From Podospora anserina (Eukaryota), in contig CM030333.1 in the NCBI GenBank assembly GCA_017654855.1, positions 744,001 through 808,000 on the forward strand: a stretch of 64,000 bases of DNA, given 5' to 3'. The position numbers and the translations under genes were made by a program. Below, one piece after another: positions 4,288 through 13,700 of the stretch; position 1 is the stretch's first letter; each line of letters starts with the position of its first letter. Under the pieces are notes generated by a model, which was given only the letters and a program-made list of their open reading frames with translations, was not told the origin of the DNA and ran no database searches.

Positions 4288-7200
4288 ATGGCCACCAACG
4301 GTCTTTTGAGCTCAGATGATGAGCTGTTTTTTGATCCCATGCCGACAGAAGAACCCACGACCTATGAGTTTCAGTCCGAACTGTCAGACGATGAGGATCC
4401 AGATCCGATTGCGGTCGACGAGATTACCCAGCCTGTTGCGCCTTCGGTACCGTCACATTTGATGCCTGCGATGCCTCGTGCGAATATGGACGACTTTTTG
4501 CCCGACGACTCCATACAGTATGAGGAACCACCGGTAACGGATGGACATGGTTATGACGGACATCGAAGCGATAGAGACGACTCGGCCGGTCCAGTCACAA
4601 GAATCGTCGACATTGAAGTAGCGTTACCGGAGATGTCGGAGGAAAAGAAGGCCGAGTTTGAGTACATTGAGGTGCCAGAGATGAAGCCAGAAACTGAGGG
4701 CTACATGACAAGGAGGACACGCAATGGGGTAAGGGGTTGTGCTGGGTGATTTGCTGTTTGTGTCTGCTGTGGTGGGAGATATGAGCAAGGCTCAACGATG
4801 CAAGTGCGTCAACATCATGGGAGTTGCGTTGTGCTGTGTTAGGTTGTGGCGTTTGTCTAAGGAGTTGTAGTTGGCAACTCTTCCAAGTGGTTGAGTGGAA
4901 GCTGGGACGACAACCACAAGGGCCTCAGGGGTCGGGGGGTGGGTGGAGTTGCCATCAAAGTATCAAGTCCCAACATGGAGAGCAAGTTGCTCTGTCGGGA
5001 TGTAATGCAATCCCGGGCTCCTGATCCAAACTCTTTTGGGTTTGTCTTTAGTATGGAGCCAGGGGTTTTTGGGGAGCTTGAGTTGTGCGGTCTTGGTGCC
5101 TACAGTATCGCTAGCCTCGCTGTTCTGGCTTCAAACATGGTCAGCATCCTCTTCCTAGCCCACATGACGACCTCCAGCTTTCGGTATCTCCCGAGCCGAA
5201 GACTTGTCTGGCTTCTTTTCTGCCTTCACCCATCGCTCCTTCTCCACCTAAGGATTTTGGCTGGGTCACACAACTACTGTCAATGACCTTCCCCTATTGA
5301 TCACAATATTGCTCCTTCCCAACACACCTTCGTCTGAACCCTTAGCGCCTTTTCATTATTTGCAGGTCACACGGTTTTGTTATCCATCTATTTCTCCGTT
5401 TGGTTTGATTCGCCGTCTTCCTCTTCCCGAGAACCTCAACTTTCTCGCTGCTGCTCGCCTCCCAAGCTTCTGAAAACGCCCATTCTCGCCGGTTTGTTCC
5501 TTCCAATGGGGTCTTCCAGTCACTCAGACGGCGAGTATACTCCGCCTTTCGATGACGAGAATAGCGGGGATGACGGGGCTCTGCTCAGCCTGACTGCCGA
5601 GGCCAGCAACGGCAGGCAATTGTCACCTGACGACTACTATATTGACGAGGTTGAGTATATTGACCCAGAGGAAGCCGACTGGAATATTCAATCAGGCAAC
5701 AACCTGTCAACCAGCGACTTTGACCGCGACTATTTGAACAATTTTCACCCGGCCTACCTGGATGAGCACCAGCCAGAGCACAGAAATTTCGTTCAGTCAC
5801 AGCAGATGACCATGGATCGCGTCAACCAGGAATCCGACCACGCCTACGAAGGCGATAGCGACTATGCCTCTGATCAGGCCTCTGAGTACAAGGACAGCGA
5901 CTACGACTCTGACCCCATGGATATTGACCAGATTGACAGCGACGCCGGCAGTGACTCTGTAAGCGCAGGCAGCCAGATTGGCGGAATTGGGCGACCAGAG
6001 TCAAGTGACTCAATCTCTGCACTGCATTCACTTATTCATTTACTTGTTGCAAAACTCTCTATTTTCCGCATTTCTCTTTTTCACTCCAATCAATGCCCAT
6101 TGTTCTTTCTTGCCGGCAAATTGTTGACCCATACTTTATAGGACTATTACGATGACTTCAGAAAGCGCAAGAGAGGTTATAACGATAACTACTCTGGTGC
6201 CGTTGACGATTTCGACGAGGCCTCTGACGACGACATCCCCCGCACCCGAGGTGCCCCCACCATGCTTCCGCCTGTCAACTTTGGCAGATCTCTGCGCAAG
6301 CGTGCTGAAGTCACCAATTACTATGGCGGTCAAGATGAATTGCAGGAGGATGATGAGGATTCATTCATTGTCACCTCTGATATTGTGCGACCCGGCCGAA
6401 AGAAGTTGAAGCGCTTGTCTTCGAGGCTTTCTGCCAGGACCATACAGAAGACCACGTCTGTCTCTGCCTCTGCGGGTGACTCTGACATAGAATTTGAGAG
6501 CAGCCGCCGCCGTTCATCCCGTGCCAACAAGAACACCAGAAAGATGGTCGACAAGTACGCCGAGGACGAGGATGACGAGGATGATGAAGCCTTCTACATC
6601 TCGGACAACAAACCTGCTGCTGCCCCCAAAGTCGCCAGCGTGAAGGAGATCTTTCAGGGCAACATTCCCACCGACTTCAAGGAAGCTCACAGGTTGACCT
6701 GCGACAGTTGTGGCTATCCTGATGACCGCAACAAGGGAACCTTTGTCTTTTGTCAAGGCTGCTCCAATGTCTATCACAAAGTCTGTCTGGGCAACCGCAG
6801 CAGCCGTGAGCAGTGTGTGACCAAGGTTGGGCCAGATTCCTTCGTCATGCAGTGCCGCTTTTGCATCGATGTTTACAAGAAGCGAGACCCGCGGGCACCA
6901 AGCCACGGCACATGCCAAACTTGCCATGTCAGAGGCCCATCATGCATCCCTTTCTCCGAAAAGAAAACACCCAAGCAAGAGGAGAAGTTGCGCATCGATA
7001 ATGGCGGTGTTGATCCCATCACGGAGGTCAATCCCAAGCTTATCAACAACCACAACAACGTCCTCTTTCGCTGTGCCAGGTGCCATCGAGGCTGGCACTA
7101 TGAACATCTCCCCCATCCCAACCCGACTCGAGACCCGTCTTGGTCAGAGCCTCTCAATCTACGCAAGCTCAGGTTGGAAGAGTACCAGATCGATTGGATG

Positions 7201-10200
7201 TGCAAGGACTGTCGCGACACAGATGGGCTCAAGCCTGACAAGATTGTGGCCTGGCGCCCAGCTGATCGCAAGAGCTACATCGAAGGTCAGACTATCGCAG
7301 ACTTCGACGAGGATCAAATCGAGTACCTGATCAAGTGGGAGCGCCAGTCTTACAACCATTGCCAGTGGTTCCCTGGCGCCTGGGTCTATGGTATCGTCAA
7401 ACACAACATGCGTGTCTCCTTCCTCAAGAGGACATTTGGAGAGGGGCTTGAGGGAGGTCCTGACAGCGAGATCAAGGCAGATTCTCTGCTCAGATGGACC
7501 GAAAAGGAGGCCATCTACAATGTCTGGGTCACACCTGATATCATTCTCGATGTCCACGTCGCTCCGCGAACCGTCGAGGCTGAAGCAAAGTACAAGGCTC
7601 GGTCTCGCGAGGACAAGTTCCAGGAGGACTTGAGTCGGATCTTCCACGTGGTCAAAATCCTTGTGAAGTTTGAGGGCCTTGGGTACGAGGATGTTGTTTG
7701 GGACACCCCTCCGGACTCGTCAGACGGTGCTCTCTGGGAGGCGTATCAAGAGGCGTACCGGGAGTACCTCAATGGCAAGCACTTCAAACCAGAGTCCAAC
7801 CGTGTCATGCGAGAGCGCCTCCAAGAATTCCGCCAACTCGATTTCGTCAAAGATATCGAACTCAAGAAGCAGCCCGAGGGCCTCAAGCGCGGCCAGCTTA
7901 TGGAATATCAGATCAATGGCGTCAACTGGATGCTTCACAACTTCCGTCATGACAGGAGTGTCATTCTTGCCGATGAGATGGGTCTGGGCAAGACAGTTCA
8001 AATCGTGGCACTGCTCTACACTCTCATCATGACCAAGCCTCGCATCTGGCCGTTTCTTGTTGTGGTGCCAAATGCGACCTGCGCCAACTGGCGACGTGAG
8101 ATCAAGAAATGGGCTCCTGACCTTCGAGTTGTTGCATACTATGGCGGACGAGTGTCTCAACAGGCCGCAAAGGAGTACGAGCTGTTTCCAGGCAATACTC
8201 GCGACATGAAGGCACACGTTGTCATCATGTCCTACGACTCGGTCAAGGACAGTGAAACGCGATCCCGGTTCAGCAGTGTGAAGTGGGCTGGTCTAATTGT
8301 CGACGAAGCTCAGGCTCTCAAGAATGACGAGAATTCGCTGTACAAGGCCTTGAACATGCTCAATATCCCGTTCAAGGTTCTTCTGACAGGAACGCCATTG
8401 CAAAACAACAAGAGGGAGTTATTCAACCTCCTTCAGTTCATCGACCCCAGTATGAAGGCCGAGCAGCTTGACCAAGAGTACGACCAGATCACCTCGGAAA
8501 ACCTCAGGCATCTTCATGATCTGATCCGGCCGTATTTCTTGCGCCGCACAAAGGCCGAGGTGCTCACCTTCCTGCCGACGATGGCTCAGATCATTGTCCC
8601 TGTTTCGATGTCGGTCTTGCAAGAGAGGCTCTGCAAGTCGATCATGGAGAAGAACCCTCAGCTCATCCGATCCATCTTTGCTCAGGGAAAACTGAAGGCC
8701 AACGAGCGTGGGTCGCTGAGCAACATCCTCATGCAACTGCGCAAGTGTCTCTGCCATCCTTTCATCTACAGCCAGGCCATCGAAGATCGCAACCTGTCTC
8801 CCGAGCTCACTCGCCGGAACTTGATTGAGGCCTCTTCCAAGCTGATGCTCTTGGAGATTATGCTGCCCAAGTTGAAAGAGCGCGGCCACCGCGTCCTCAT
8901 CTTCAGTCAGTTCCTTGACCAGCTGACGGTCCTCGAGGACTTTTTGATGAGTTTGAACCTCAGACACGAGCGTTTGGACGGCAGTCAGTCTAGTTTGGAG
9001 AAGCAGAAGAAGATCGACGCATACAACGCTCCAGATTCAGACATCTTCTGCATGTTGTTGTCGACGCGCGCTGGTGGTGTTGGTATCAACTTGGCGACGG
9101 CCGACACCGTCATCATCCTCGACCCCGACTGGAACCCTCACCAAGATATCCAGGCTCTTTCACGCGCCCATCGTATCGGACAGCGCAAGAAGGTCTTGTG
9201 CTTCCAGCTCGTCACTGTTGACTCGGCCGAGGAGAAGATTCTTCAGATCGGTCGCAAGAAAATGGCGCTCGATCATCTGCTCATCGAGACCATGGACAAT
9301 CAGGACGACGCCCCCAATGACGTCGAGTCGGTCTTGAAGCACGGCGCTGAAGCTCTCTTTGGCGATAAGAAGAAGGATGCCATCAAATACGATTCGGCTG
9401 CTGTTGACAAGCTTTTAGATCGATCCATGCAGGAGGAAACCAAGACCGACGATAAGAAATCGGCCGAGTCTGCTTTTGCCTACGCCCGAGTGTGGGCCAA
9501 CGATGGTCTTGCTGACGAGATGAAGGAGACCGAACAGCAGGAGATGTCGCTCAGTGTCTGGGACCAAATTCTCAAGCAGCGTGAAGAGGAGGCTCGTCGT
9601 GAGGCCGAGAAAGCTAGGGAAACTCTCGGCCGCGGTGGACGCCGTCGTGGGGTGAGTAGTTATGCTTCCAGTCCCTGGAAGCCCAGAATACTAACGAACA
9701 ACAGAATGCCAACTACGCAGGTCCCCAGTTCGAGTTTGACGAGGGAGAGAAGCCAGACAGTGATCAAGGCGAAGGTGATCATGACTTCATCGCTAAAAGC
9801 GATGGTGGTGATACAAGCGACGAGGAAGTCGGCACTCCAGCCACTGGGCTATCAGCACACTTGCGCAAGTCAGGTACGAAAAGTCAACTTTCTTTAGTTC
9901 AGTCAAGAAGCAGAGCCAAAGGCAACAAAGGGGGCGCGACACCACCAGTCACGCCCAGCAAGAGGAAGACCCTGCAAAAGACCACTCAAACACGCAGTAT
10001 TACTCGAACCACAAGCTCACGCAAGACAACTTCTCAGACAACGAAAGCGGCCAGGCCCAGACCCAAAGCAACGCCCAAGCCCAAGGGAAAGCAGCAGCAG
10101 CAGGAGCAGCAGCTTCCCTCGCCCCCCAAAACGGCCACGCCAAAGGCGCCGTCAATGGTGATAAAGTTAAACGTTCCCAAGTCGAAGTCGCCATCTTCAC

Positions 10201-10753
10201 GGCCCAAGGCCCAGGCGCCCAACAACAAAACAGCGGTGGCGCCAGCAACAGTCGCCCAGTTAGCACAGACGTCCGGTTTAATGTCCCTGACAATGCTGCG
10301 TCCCAAAACCAAAGACGGCAGCAGCAGCAGCAGCAGCTCGGAGCTGTCGGAGGTGTCGGGGGAGCCCCAGTAACTCACCACCAGGCAGGTGCAAGCATGA
10401 CAGCCTCTCAAAGGGCGGGGATTGACTTGTTGAACTCGATTGCGATGAGGCCTGCTGGGCAGTCTGGAGGTGGTGGGGGTGGGGGGGTGATGGTTAACCA
10501 GATTGGTGTGCCGACGGTTCCGAGCTCGACGTCGTCGTCGGTGGCGGCGGCGGCGGTGGTGCTGCCAAAGGCGGAGCAGTGCGTTGTTTGCAAGTATAGT
10601 CACCCGTGGAGCTGGGAGTGCCCTGAGATGAGGAGCATGAGGAATTTGAGGGTGGCGTTGGATGAGCTGAAGCGGGATGGGAGGTTGACGGAGGAGGAGA
10701 GGAGTGGGTGGAGGGGGTTTTTGGTGGAGAAGTTGAGGTTGTTGAGGGGGTGA
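4288..10753 (+). CDS. mit1: Mit1/CHD-type SNF2 chromatin remodeler (PHD-like fingers, chromo-like region, SNF2 helicase, C-terminal Zn finger), multi-exon
   Basis: Main exon 6142-9651 has CDSC..CQGC..HKVC PHD-like fingers, ILADEMGLGKT, DEAQ, LLTGTPLQNN, STRAGGVGINL and QALSRAHRIGQ. Intron 9652-9704 (GTGAGT..CTAAC..CAG). The distal CVVCKYSHPWSWECP..LRVALDEL segment resembles the Mit1 C-terminal Zn finger. The first exon is either 4288-4728 or 5506-5958. Confidence 0.85.
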
Positions 10754-13700
10754 TCTTGGGGCTTACTCATAATTTTTGAGGATTGTTGTGTGTTGTTTTC
10801 TTTTGGGAAGGGGAGTGCTAGTCAAACGGGGAGACAAAATGGTGATGGGGAGGGGCTGGCTGGTGATTCATTGCGAAAGAGAGGGGGTGCTCTGGCAGGA
10901 TCTCTAAGCTCTTTTCATTCAGAAGAGAGGGATTATCTCCTTTTTAATACTCTGCGGTTGAGTTTTCTATTGCATAGCGCGATATACCCTGGGATTTTTT
11001 CCGGTGCATTGAGGCATTCGGATGGAGGTGGGGAGGCGTCTGGGGTTTGCTTTTGCGCGCCACGCAGCATCATACAGAGAGATTTTTTATTTACAAAGAC
11101 AGGGATTGCGTTTGTGCTTGCTACCTACCTATGTGATGCGCTCAAGAGTGACTGTTTACCTATGTTTGTGTGATGTTGCCCACACTGGTTTGTTTCTATG
11201 AGAAGGGGAGGGGTGTTGGCCTTGTTCGGGTGGGCTGCTATGGGGAGGGGAGAGTTAGGGAAGGGAGAATTGGGGAGGAGAGAGTCGGAGGGGAGAGAGT
11301 TGGGGAGGAGGGTGGGCGACTTGACATGGTCCAGGCGGTTGTGGAGGGGGCCGGGGGGAAACTTGGGATGGTATGGAAGGGAAATAGCAAGGTGGCTAGA
11401 TTTTAAGTGTTTTGGGATAGAAAGTGAGACGAGAGGAGGAGGTACAGTGCGGGCATGTGATGATCGAGATTGGGATGGAAGTCAAGGGAATGAGAGAAGT
11501 CGAGACGGGGCAGTGGTTGGGTCACTGGGACAGAAGATTCAAGGTCGGGTTGGGCAACATGACATCTTTGTGACGTGCTCGAGGTGGGCGAGCAAGATGC
11601 CTACCTCCTCAATGGCCAACTCCAGGTGCAAGGCACGGGGCTGGAGGGTTGGTAGTGTGACATCTACACTCTCGGTGAGAGCTCGGGGGAGCTCGCTGGC
11701 AAGGATGTGGGAGGGAGTGGTTGGGATGGCAGTGCTTCATGGTTAGGATCTGGGGCTGATGTCCAGAATCGCGGGAGAGGGGTAGAGGAGGAGTTACAGC
11801 CAGACCAAACTGGAGGAAGGGCGATCGACAGTCTAGATCTGAGGGGGGTGTCGGACCGATGATGTGAGTGGTATGCGGGTAGATGGGAGGGTTTCCCAAA
11901 GCACACTGCGCCTCCGTATGGAGGTTGCTTTTGGGTCTGGCAGGTTTGTTTCAGATGATAGCTTACTTTGTTAGATTTGGGTTTTGGGGGTGGCAAGGCT
12001 GGTGAGATGAGATGACGCCTTTAGGCCGGCTGAGAGGTGGCCGAGGGTTTCAGGAAGAGGGGTGGGTTGTTCGTTACCGGTCTGTCGGGAGGGGAATGAC
12101 TCGCGGTCGGAGGGGGAATAGGGAGGTTGGGATGCGAGTTGCAGGGGAAAACTGGAGAGAAGCGGAGTTGTAAAACGATGAGATTGGTGGTGCGCTAGCT
12201 ACACACGATGGATCCAATGGGTTGGTGGTATGTACCTAGTTTATTGCTAGAATGGGAATGGATGGTGAGGGTTGTGGCTGGCATTGGTGTTAACATTGAC
12301 ATTTGACAGCTGACGGGTTGACGTGCGTAGCGGCCCGTTGAATGGACTGAGCTTAGCCTCTTCTAGAAATGAGGGACATGAGAAAGAGTTGTGGTATTTT
12401 CTGTGTTTTAGAGCTGCCCAAAGGCTTTGTTTATTTATTGGCTTTGGAGATCTGTTGTAAGTGGCAGGATGCTTAGGGGTTGATATGGCTCCATTGGGAT
12501 ACCCACCAACTTTGACACTGGACGTAAAGAACCCTTTCTGGATGGTGTGTGACCTTTGGAGATTTGGAAGTATATAGGGCAAAGACGAGATGTTGGGATC
12601 AACTGTCAGTACTTGTCATCCGATGTCTTGGAATACACGTGGTAACTTCAACATGTATAATCTTGGTATTGACTTGATGCTGTTATTCTTTTTGTGGATC
12701 TAGCCACATCTTGCAAGTGACAAGTACCTACCTAAGCCCTGGGAGTAAATAACAATTCAATGTCTGTCCGGTAAGTGCTCACAGGCACTGGTGTTTGGCG
12801 TGTGGAGTGCTATGTGAGCGGAGGTTGGCGCCACTTCTCACCACGATGCTGGAAAAGTATCTTGATCAATGAGATGATATTCTCCCAGTCCCTGAAGCCG
12901 TACTACCCATCCCATCCATCAGCCAGCTCCCGCCGTGTAGCCGCCCTGAACACAGATATCTCACCAAGGATCACAACACACATGCACTAAATACCTTTTT
13001 GGTACCTTCCGGTATCTTTTCTCCCATTTGCGGTCGGAGTGGCCGTTTGTCACGTGCGACTAGTGAACCAAAAAGAACAGGCACCAAATGTGGCTTCCCG
13101 CCCAGTGCCTGGGCAAAGGCAAGCAACCTTATTCAGATTGACTGTGAGGCCGTTTGCTTCAAGCTTGTTCAAGTCCTTTTGGTCTGTCCGGCATTTGTTT
13201 ACATGCATTGATATGAGTCAACGGGGAGATGTCTGCTCGTTCCGATAGGTTGGCAAGTTGCTTTCTGAAGTGTTGAGGCTCATGCATTCCACAAGCCCAC
13301 CACAAGCTTATGTGGCTTGTCTGTTCGTTTGGTTGCGGTGGAGGAGAGGTTAGCAACGGAAAACACCGATCAAGCGTGGATTAGGGCGCCAGACTAAGGT
13401 AGTAAGAACCAGAAAGATAAATAACGGGACAGATATCTATGTGGCTGTTTAGGTTCTTTCGCCTCTTTTCTAATGCTGGCTGTTACGCTGTCAATCGGTA
13501 GCAAGTAAATACCTTACCTAACTTAGATATCAACACTAAGATATTTTCCAAGTGCATCTGCTGTTTTGCCTTGCAACTTTCATCTTCAACCCTGGTCCCT
13601 TGTCCCTCGTCCTTTCCTGCCCTCTGCCGGAGACGCACAACAGGCAGGCGCACAACACCTCAAAGCTACGGTCGTACTTGCTTGTGATCTGCTCAACTGG

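What the first reader, a model, noticed from the sequence alone, without database searches (positions are those of the whole stretch)
9705..10753. Dual-coding 3' region gives the Mit1 remodeler two alternative C-termini
Seen: after intron 9652-9704 the frame runs to TAA 10373 and encodes a very basic K/T/S/P tail with a VIKLNV motif. A second frame is stop-free from 9812 to 10753. It encodes a Q/A/G/N-rich linker running into CVVCKYSHPWSWECP..LRVALDEL, so about 560 nt are open in both frames. A phase-1 donor G|GTACGA at 9874 joins the second frame using either TTCTCAG 10037 (GCTCAC branch-like upstream) or GCAG 10388. Known: Mit1 is the SHREC/NuRD-type remodeler and fungal orthologs carry a C-terminal Zn finger. 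Inference: splicing versus retention of one intron toggles between a Zn-finger isoform and a basic H1-tail-like isoform. A G_GGA_AAG heptamer at 10085-10091 is a weaker -1 frameshift alternative.
Basis: partly seen in the sequence, partly recalled or inferred. Interest (0 to 1): 0.75.

Follow-up and report, generated by a model that had tools for sequence, protein, structure and literature searches.

The report
Ordinary spliced intron in Mit1 gene
The two overlapping open frames at the end of this fungal chromatin-remodeler gene are real, but transcripts splice out a 164-base intron to give the already annotated zinc-knuckle end, and the second frame looks like a by-product of base composition.

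Summary
The window carries the Podospora orthologue of the Mit1/CHD3-type remodeler. It is 99% identical to the annotated P. pseudoanserina protein QC764_201100.

Transcript-like contigs from 4 of 4 runs, from 4 studies, remove 9652-9704 (53 nt) and 9874-10037 (164 nt, GT..AG). None covers the second intron.

The 164-nt splice moves frame 0 into frame 2. The product is a 1615-aa protein ending in the conserved C-x2-C-x3-H-x5-C knuckle plus helices. That is the C-terminus annotated in five sibling species.

The basic frame-0 tail would arise only from intron retention, which was not seen. Its openness is not unusual:
- Shuffling the 110 real codons never creates a frame-0 stop (20000 of 20000).
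- The segment has 11.6% T.
- The window holds 59 stop-free runs of 166 codons or more.

The frame-0 peptide has no detectable relatives.

One residual oddity is that gene models in other Sordariales read through the same donor into basic tails that resemble each other.

Verdict: a correct intron call and a known isoform. The dual-coding toggle is not supported.

The parts
5506..5958 (+). Exon 1 of the Mit1-type gene (start ATG at 5506)
   Evidence: tblastn of P0001 on the window. The joined model translates to 1615 aa with a single terminal stop.
5959..6141 (+). Intron 1, 183 nt, GTAAGC...ATAG. It contains the in-frame stop at 6139-6141.
   Evidence: Gap in the P0001 alignment plus splice consensus. 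Not checked against RNA.
6142..9651 (+). Exon 2: zf-PHD-like, Chromo_MIT1, SNF2 ATPase and Helicase_C domains
   Evidence: Pfam: PF15446 6.9e-73, PF23615 1.6e-23, PF00176 7.5e-64, PF00271 8.7e-23.
9652..9704 (+). Intron 2, 53 nt, GTGAGT...ACTAAC...CAG
   Evidence: Joint skipping 53 nt with GT..AG ends in contigs of 4 of 4 runs.
9705..9873 (+). Exon 3, acidic stretch, frame p%3=0, ends ...SAHLRKS + G
9874..10037 (+). Intron 3, 164 nt (164 mod 3 = 2): donor GTACGA, GCTCAC at 10015-10020, acceptor TTCTCAG. It shifts frame 0 to frame 2.
   Evidence: Joint skipping 164 nt with GT..AG ends in 4 of 4 runs. The depth bin 9911-10011 is zero in all four. The same junction (RKS|DNES) is in the annotated proteins P0001, P0135, P0136, P0138 and P0139.
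10038..10753 (+). Last exon, frame p%3=2: Q/A/G/N-rich linker, then the CCHC knuckle and two helices; stop TGA at 10751-10753
   Evidence: Continuous in contigs of all four runs. 99% identical to P0001 residues 1377-1615.
10577..10750 (+). Conserved C-terminal domain: C-x2-C-x3-H-x5-C, then CPEM...LRxALDxL and a second helix
   Evidence: phmmer found 15 proteins at E <= 1e-3. Invariant C, H, P, W, C, P, E columns in alignment A2. AF2 model mean pLDDT 84.3. hhalign to the second knuckle of PF18585-type sequences: 86.8%, E 4.2e-6.
9874..10373 (+). Frame-0 read-through ORF (basic K/T/S/P tail, TAA at 10371-10373). It would be translated only if intron 3 were retained.
   Evidence: No RNA contig supports it. 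No homologues found.
10085..10091 (+). GGGAAAG heptamer; not in the translated phase of the spliced mRNA
   Evidence: Fold of 10092-10190: z = -0.95, with 33 of 200 shuffles folding at least as well.
10754..11116 (+). 3' UTR; contigs end at 11081-11116
   Evidence: Ends of contig pieces in runs X1, X3, X8 and X10. Contigs give only approximate ends.

Best explanation
The region is the 3' end of the Podospora Mit1/CHD3-type remodeler gene. A 164-nt intron (9874-10037) is spliced out as the dominant, probably constitutive, event.

Splicing joins ...HLRKS to DNESGQ... and carries translation in frame 2 to TGA at 10751-10753. The product is a 1615-aa protein. Its last 60 or so residues form one CCHC zinc knuckle plus two helices.

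By inference, this is a reduced version of the Mit1 C-terminal domain, which binds the scaffold protein Clr1 in fission yeast.

The long frame-0 reading through the intron and 336 nt of the last exon is a by-product of two things. The sense strand is T-poor and A/C-rich. The low-complexity linker has hydrophobic codons that all end in C or T, so frame-0 stops cannot form.

Shown here: the splice, the frames, the homology of the C-terminus, and the statistics. Inferred: zinc binding, a partner-binding role, and that splicing is constitutive under all conditions.
For: -: 4 of 4 RNA-like runs (4 studies) each have one contig with the 53-nt and 164-nt GT..AG joints. No piece lies inside 9874-10037. 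The last exon is continuous.
- five sibling Podospora species are annotated with exactly this junction and C-terminus.
- the joined model gives 1615 aa, the same length as P0001.
- the CCHC motif with CPEM...LRxALD is conserved, in 32 of 71 orthologue tails of 100 aa or more.
- frame-2 pieces match orthologue tails (141 bits for the C-terminus, 48 bits for the linker). Frame-0 pieces score 19-22 bits, the same as shuffled controls (mean 19-21, maximum 23-26).
- frame 0 stays open in 20000 of 20000 codon shuffles.
- T is 11.6% in the segment.
- no protein at E <= 10 for the frame-0 peptide in either length class.
- codon-usage log-odds for frame 0 in the intron is -0.002 per codon, against +0.23 to +0.27 for true frames of exon 3 and the helicase control.
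- with 31, 32: the C-terminus relates to the Mit1 C-terminal Zn finger.
Against: - The runs are labelled RNA only as a guess. They were available as contigs, which drop rare variants, so a minor retained form cannot be excluded.
- The intron is stop-free in frame 0, with P about 0.11.
- Gene models of at least 8 other Sordariales read through the same GGTAC donor into basic tails. These tails are similar to each other (best E 7e-7) and share the blocks (T/S)PATPK and SSRKGQ.
- An HMM built from those tails scores the window's frame 0 at 25.4 bits without composition correction, and 55 of 1000 shuffles reach that. With correction it scores -4.5 bits, and 123 of 1000 shuffles reach that. This is borderline rather than clearly null.
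- More distant fungi (L003, L005) carry a basic TPKK-type region upstream of the Zn finger.
- Pfam PF18585 does not hit the window's C-terminus. The structural match to 5ikf is weak (E 0.75; Z 5.2 against 4.6 for the next unrelated row).
Confidence: 0.8

Rival explanations
1. A regulated fraction of transcripts retains the 164-nt intron and is translated in frame 0. The resulting isoform has an H1-like basic tail and lacks the zinc-knuckle, partner-binding domain. Both frames are kept open by selection.
For: - Frame 0 is open through the intron and a further 336 nt.
- Read-through basic-tail models exist in other Sordariales, with shared motifs.
- The HMM result is borderline: 55 of 1000 shuffles reach the uncorrected score.
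- A basic region is an old feature of Mit1 orthologues in distant fungi.
- Intron retention is described as the commonest splicing variant in fungi (PMC9801653, passage read).
Against: - 0 of 4 assemblies hold a retained form.
- Openness of the exon part is forced by codon composition.
- The frame-0 peptide has no relatives.
- The overlapped linker is only 44-45% identical to two sister-genus proteins and has indels. That is the opposite of the extra constraint expected of dual coding.
- The T. verruculosa model P0002 reads the intron equivalent in frame 2, not frame 0.
- Frame-0 codon usage in the intron is neutral.
Confidence: 0.13
2. Programmed -1 ribosomal frameshifting at G_GGA_AAG (10085-10091) moves ribosomes from the basic frame into the zinc-knuckle frame.
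For: The heptamer has the X_XXY_YYZ form in frame 0, and a -1 shift would enter frame 2.
Against: - In the spliced mRNA seen in 4 of 4 runs, the ribosome is already in frame 2 at this site, so the heptamer is out of phase.
- The 99 nt downstream fold no better than shuffles (z = -0.95).
Confidence: 0.01
3. An assembly indel falsely separates two frames that are really one.
For: None found.
Against: - Contigs of four independent runs match the window across 9704-9869 and 10034-11116. They have no inserted or deleted letters and a single synonymous G>A difference at 10654.
- Six genome-like runs hold all sampled words of 9300-11000.
Confidence: 0.01

Closest known systems
Annotated Podospora orthologues: QC764_201100 (P. 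pseudoanserina), QC763_201100, QC762_201100, QC761_201100, and P. comata VBB75139.1
   Same: Same gene, same RKS|DNES junction and same CCHC C-terminus. Lengths are 1611-1615 aa against 1615 aa here.
   Different: A few residues differ in the tail: S where P0001 has G at two positions. The older P. anserina S mat+ model PODANS_2_1100 (1274 aa) instead reads intron 2 through in frame 1 and lacks the knuckle.
Schizosaccharomyces pombe Mit1 (SHREC remodeler), C-terminal domain; PDB 5ikf; Pfam PF18585 zf-CCCH_6
   Same: Same domain order: PHD-like, Mit1 chromodomain, SNF2 ATPase, C-terminal Cys/His domain. The C-terminal knuckle plus helix aligns to the second knuckle of PF18585-type sequences. 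5ikf_A is the top structural match.
   Different: Only one of the two knuckles is present. The Pfam model does not reach E <= 0.1. The structural scores are weak. Partner binding was not tested.
Intron-retention or exitron isoforms of fungi
   Same: A short intron that is stop-free in the upstream frame, so retention would give a long alternative C-terminus.
   Different: No retained transcript was seen. The length is not a multiple of three. There is no conservation of the alternative peptide.
Programmed -1 frameshift sites (slippery heptamer plus downstream structure)
   Same: A heptamer of the right form is present.
   Different: It is out of phase in the mature mRNA, and no stimulatory structure was found.

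Membership tests
Mit1/CHD3-type (SHREC/NuRD-like) chromatin remodeler | PHD/FYVE-like zinc finger N-terminal to the ATPase | tested here: met
   PF15446 6.9e-73, full-length match 1-170 of 170.
Mit1/CHD3-type (SHREC/NuRD-like) chromatin remodeler | Mit1-type chromodomain | tested here: met
   PF23615 1.6e-23, 83.4 bits against a cutoff of 27.
Mit1/CHD3-type (SHREC/NuRD-like) chromatin remodeler | SNF2 ATPase plus Helicase_C | tested here: met
   PF00176 7.5e-64; PF00271 8.7e-23.
Mit1/CHD3-type (SHREC/NuRD-like) chromatin remodeler | C-terminal Zn finger 2 (Pfam PF18585), the Clr1-binding domain | tested here: inconclusive
   No Pfam hit at E <= 0.1 for the 120-aa C-terminus, nor at E <= 1 for P0001 and P0040. 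Profile-profile comparison gives 86.8%, E 4.2e-6, to the second knuckle. 5ikf_A ranks first by Foldseek (E 0.75, prob 0.87) and by VIA (Z 5.2, rmsd 2.4, 50 aligned), within 1 of unrelated rows.
Mit1/CHD3-type (SHREC/NuRD-like) chromatin remodeler | Assembly into a remodeler-deacetylase complex | not testable with these tools
   No partner was searched for or modelled.
Dual-coding (overlapping reading frame) gene segment | Alternative frame open beyond what composition gives | tested here: not met
   20000 of 20000 codon shuffles keep frame 0 open. Intron P is about 0.11. The window has 59 other runs of 166 codons or more.
Dual-coding (overlapping reading frame) gene segment | Alternative-frame peptide conserved in relatives | tested here: not met
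   BLASTP against 70 orthologue tails scores the same as shuffles. Nothing at E <= 10 in two database searches. HMM of other species' basic tails: 55-123 of 1000 shuffles reach the score.
Dual-coding (overlapping reading frame) gene segment | Suppressed synonymous change in the overlap | not testable with these tools
   No DNA of close relatives could be fetched. One search found none, and one search returned only loci at 61% identity or less. As a proxy, the linker is 44-45% identical at protein level to P0003 and P0004, against 94-96% in the helicase part.
Dual-coding (overlapping reading frame) gene segment | Both frames translated | not testable with these tools
   No ribosome profiling or proteomics was available.
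Intron-retention isoform | Retained form present in RNA | tested here: inconclusive
   0 of 4 contig sets cover the intron. Contigs can drop minor variants.
Programmed -1 ribosomal frameshift | Slippery heptamer in the translated zero frame | tested here: not met
   The heptamer is in phase only with frame 0. The spliced mRNA is read in frame 2 there.
Programmed -1 ribosomal frameshift | Stable downstream stimulatory structure | tested here: not met
   10092-10190: -23.2 kcal/mol against shuffles at -20.6 +/- 2.8, z = -0.95.

The most novel reading that the evidence does not exclude
Across Sordariales, the short intron after ...SRKxQGK.. may be a conserved, facultatively retained coding segment.

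Retention would replace the partner-binding zinc knuckle with an H1-like (S/T)P-x-K-rich DNA-binding tail. The remodeler would then be uncoupled from its deacetylase module.

The Podospora frame-0 ORF would be a diverged member of this switch, and possibly a relic of the ancestral in-frame basic region seen in distant fungi.
Probability: 0.13. Interest if true: 0.6.

Novelty: already known. Interest (0 to 1): 0.2.

Why it matters
The product is the one already annotated in sibling species, so it adds little new biology.

It has two modest practical values:
- It shows that the older public model of the reference strain (PODANS_2_1100, 1274 aa) has a wrong 3' end and lacks the conserved C-terminal domain.
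- It shows that Sordariales keep only the second knuckle of the Mit1 C-terminal Zn-finger domain.

If the retained-intron isoform were real, it would be a compact splice-controlled way to separate remodeling from deacetylase recruitment in a NuRD-like complex. The evidence here does not favour that.

Tried and rejected
- No RNA holder listed: the look-up of sequencing runs listed no run on record as RNA. 14 runs are RNA only by guess. Four were laid as contigs, so absence of a retained form or of the 10388 acceptor is absence in contigs only.
- DNA of close relatives: the first metagenome scan with the 132-aa query found no relative. The second, with alignment A1, returned 80 loci, the best at 51-61% identity (L001-L006). 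These are too distant for a codon-level test of the overlap. No fungal genome collection is offered, so synonymous-rate and stop-codon checks in sister species could not be run.
- Frame-0 peptide searches found nothing: longer proteins (1246 candidates, none at E <= 10) and near-length proteins (114 candidates, none).
- Pfam on the frame-0 peptide gave only YL1 at E 0.081, below its cutoff.
- A second, downstream intron that could link frame 0 to frame 2 before the TAA: 0 candidates with a consensus-like donor and YAG acceptor, and no such joint in contigs. I first suspected GTAACT at 10370 as such a donor and rejected it on these grounds.
- An assembly indel is rejected.
- A -1 frameshift is rejected.
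- The search of earlier findings returned nothing.
- The literature search for 'Pa_2_1100' found only an unrelated abstract. The search Mit1+SHREC+Clr1+'zinc finger' found 0 papers.
They may list events for this gene.
- Codon-usage scoring is weak on 54-111 codons and was used only as a minor point.
Full report
**What is there**

The long + strand ORF 6142-9651 carries a PHD/FYVE-like finger (PF15446, 6.9e-73), the Mit1 chromodomain (PF23615, 1.6e-23), an SNF2 ATPase (7.5e-64) and Helicase_C (8.7e-23). It is therefore a Mit1/CHD3-type remodeler. The best database match is the annotated 1615-aa protein QC764_201100 of Podospora pseudoanserina, at 99% identity over the searched part. The window therefore comes from a member of the Podospora anserina species group.

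**Checking the observation**

All sequence statements hold.
- Frame p%3=0 is stop-free from 9660 to 10373, with TAA at 10371-10373. It reads a K/T/S/P-rich peptide that includes SMVIKLNVPKSK.
- Frame p%3=2 is stop-free from 9812 to 10753. It ends in CVVCKYSHPWSWECPEMRSMRNLRVALDEL...LRLLRG.
- Both frames are open over 562 nt.
- The donor AG|GTACGA has its GT at 9874. TTCTCAG ends at 10037, with GCTCAC 18 nt upstream. GCAG ends at 10388. GGGAAAG is at 10085-10091.

**What the RNA shows**

The search listed 24 runs of one organism. Six genome-sized assemblies (36-37 Mb) hold all sampled words of 9300-11000. Fourteen smaller assemblies (18-29 Mb) hold 62-80% and are guessed to be RNA.

I laid four of the smaller ones, from four studies, on 8800-11800.
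- In 4 of 4, one contig skips 53 nt (9652-9704, GT..AG) and 164 nt (9874-10037, GT..AG). It then runs without a gap through the last exon.
- Contigs end at 11081-11116.
- No piece lies inside the 164-nt intron. The depth bin 9911-10011 is zero in all four.
- No joint uses 10388.
- No inserted or deleted letter is reported. The only difference is G>A at 10654 in all four, which is synonymous (GTG to GTA, Val) in frame 2.

Intron-less contigs cannot come from genomic DNA, so these runs are cDNA in practice. Because they are contigs, they show the dominant form and cannot exclude a minor one.

**Consequence for the protein**

164 mod 3 = 2, so splicing moves frame 0 into frame 2. Joining 5506-5958, 6142-9651, 9705-9873 and 10038-10753 gives 1615 aa with one terminal stop. 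The first intron was placed by homology only.

The junction ...HLRKS|DNESGQ... and the whole tail are what is annotated in P. pseudoanserina, P. pseudopauciseta, P. pseudocomata, P. bellae-mahoneyi and P. comata. The zinc-knuckle isoform is thus the known product.

**Is the second open frame more than chance?**

No.
- The 110 frame-2 codons of 10040-10369 contain no NTA or NTG codon. The few hydrophobic residues use C- or T-ending codons. A frame-0 stop therefore cannot arise in any order of these codons: 20000 of 20000 shuffles stay open. Frame 1 stays open in 1.2% of the same shuffles.
- My first shuffle included the GTA codon that makes the real stop. It gave 0.33 for codon order and 0.22 for synonymous order.
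- The intron is open in two of three frames. A mononucleotide shuffle gives about 0.11 per frame.
- The segment 9874-10373 has 11.6% T, against 21.6% in the helicase ORF.
- The window holds 28 + 31 stop-free runs of 166 codons or more. One is a 169-codon alternative frame inside the helicase part of this same gene, and there are other same-strand overlapping pairs.

**Is the frame-0 peptide conserved?**

- Against 70 orthologue tails, frame-0 pieces score 19-22 bits with composition-adjusted BLASTP. Shuffled versions score the same (mean 19-21, maximum 23-26).
- In contrast, the frame-2 C-terminus scores 141 bits and the frame-2 linker 48 bits.
- Two searches of the 5.8-billion-protein collection with the 165-aa frame-0 peptide found nothing at E <= 10. 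The tool notes this is weak evidence.
- The overlapped linker is 44-45% identical to the Apiosordaria backusii (P0003) and Triangularia setosa (P0004) proteins and has indels. The helicase part is 94-96% identical. A doubly constrained segment should be more conserved, not less.
- Codon-usage log-odds for frame 0 in the intron is -0.002 per codon. True frames of the control exons score +0.23 to +0.27. This is a small sample.

**The C-terminal domain**

- phmmer with the last 120 residues found 15 proteins at E <= 1e-3. One is a 1642-aa orthologue matched at its very end.
- 32 of 71 orthologue tails of 100 aa or more carry C-x2-C-x3-4-H-x4-7-C.
- The Pfam model 'Mit1 C-terminal Zn finger 2' (PF18585) hits the distant loci L002 (3.2e-26) and L001 (4.9e-21). 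It does not hit the window's C-terminus, P0001 or the Neurospora protein.
- L002 matches PDB 5ikf, the Mit1 C-terminal domain with Clr1, at 6.4e-5.
- A profile of 35 Sordariales C-termini aligns to the second knuckle and following helix of the L001/L002/L003/L006 profile with 86.8% probability, E 4.2e-6.
- An AlphaFold model of the last 72 residues has mean pLDDT 84.3. Its top PDB match is 5ikf_A by Foldseek (E 0.75, prob 0.87) and by VIA-align (Z 5.2, rmsd 2.4, 50 aligned, with the next unrelated row at 4.6).

Together this supports a reduced, single-knuckle relative of the Mit1 C-terminal domain. It is not membership by the curated model. That Clr1 binds the Mit1 C-terminal domain is stated in PMC6499331 (passages read).

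**What remains odd**

- Among the orthologues, gene models of Parathielavia hyrcaniae, Corynascus similis, Cercophora scortea, Lasiosphaeris hirsuta, Lasiosphaeria ovina, Apodospora peruviana and Diplogelasinospora grovesii, plus one metagenome ORF, continue past the same point (...QGK..Q|GT...) into basic tails.
- Lasiosphaeria ovina and L. miniovina are identical up to that Q and then diverge into the basic form and the knuckle form. This fits read-through versus splicing at the same donor.
- These basic tails are significantly similar to each other (best E 7.2e-7). They share the blocks (T/S)PATPK and SSRKGQ.
- Part of this can be splice signals read as protein. GT would be the donor. SSRK overlaps GCTCAC in the window. 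The Q would be the CAG acceptor. This part is inference.
- An HMM of these tails scores the window's frame 0 at -4.5 bits, and 123 of 1000 shuffles reach that. Without composition correction it scores 25.4 bits, and 55 of 1000 shuffles reach that. This is not significant.
- The T. verruculosa model reads the intron equivalent in frame 2, not frame 0.
- Distant fungi (L003, L005) have a basic TPKK-type region upstream of the Zn finger.

I could not obtain DNA or RNA of these species, so whether the basic tails are real isoforms or prediction artefacts stays open.

**Verdict**

The dual-coding toggle, the 10388 acceptor and the -1 frameshift are not supported. I put about 0.8 on ordinary, essentially constitutive splicing with a compositional alternative ORF. 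I put about 0.13 on a real retained-intron basic-tail isoform.

Noticed in passing
window 9652-10160; protein P0137: The public model of the reference strain (PODANS_2_1100, 1274 aa) reads intron 2 through in frame 1 and ends ...RRRQW without the CCHC domain. This disagrees with the RNA-like contigs and with five sibling-species annotations.
   Followed up: partly
window 10654: G in the window but A in contigs of all four laid runs. The change is synonymous in frame 2 (Val GTG to GTA) and is most simply a strain difference.
   Followed up: partly
proteins P0017, P0018, P0027, P0043, P0044, P0048, P0050, P0053: Orthologue models in other Sordariales read through the same GGTAC donor into basic tails with shared blocks (T/S)PATPK and SSRKGQ. 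Two of them (P0018, P0048) then rejoin the CCHC frame. It is unknown whether these are real isoforms or prediction artefacts.
   Followed up: partly
proteins P0002 and P0003: The Triangularia verruculosa model translates the intron equivalent in frame 2 (51% identity to the window's frame-2 reading of the intron). The Apiosordaria backusii model loses the frame just before the CCHC motif.
   Followed up: no
L001:8788-9417, L002:8761-9207, L003:7337-7657, L006 3' end: Distant Mit1 orthologues from metagenome contigs carry the full two-knuckle PF18585 domain. Sordariales keep only the second knuckle. L003 and L005 have a basic TPKK-rich region upstream.
   Followed up: partly
window 10034-10762 (- strand): A 242-codon stop-free run lies on the opposite strand across the last exon, one of several long antisense open frames in this gene. 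It was taken as compositional.
   Followed up: no
window 10465-10485 and 10539-10560: 21-22-nt low-complexity stretches (G-run; GTC/GCG repeats) also match an unrelated, more abundant contig of about 4.5-4.9 kb in three runs. This produces loose ends.
   Followed up: no
window 5959-6141: The first intron (183 nt, a multiple of three, with an in-frame stop) was placed by homology only. Two RNA-like contigs extend 2659 nt upstream of 8800, i.e. to about 6142, and stop there.
   Followed up: no
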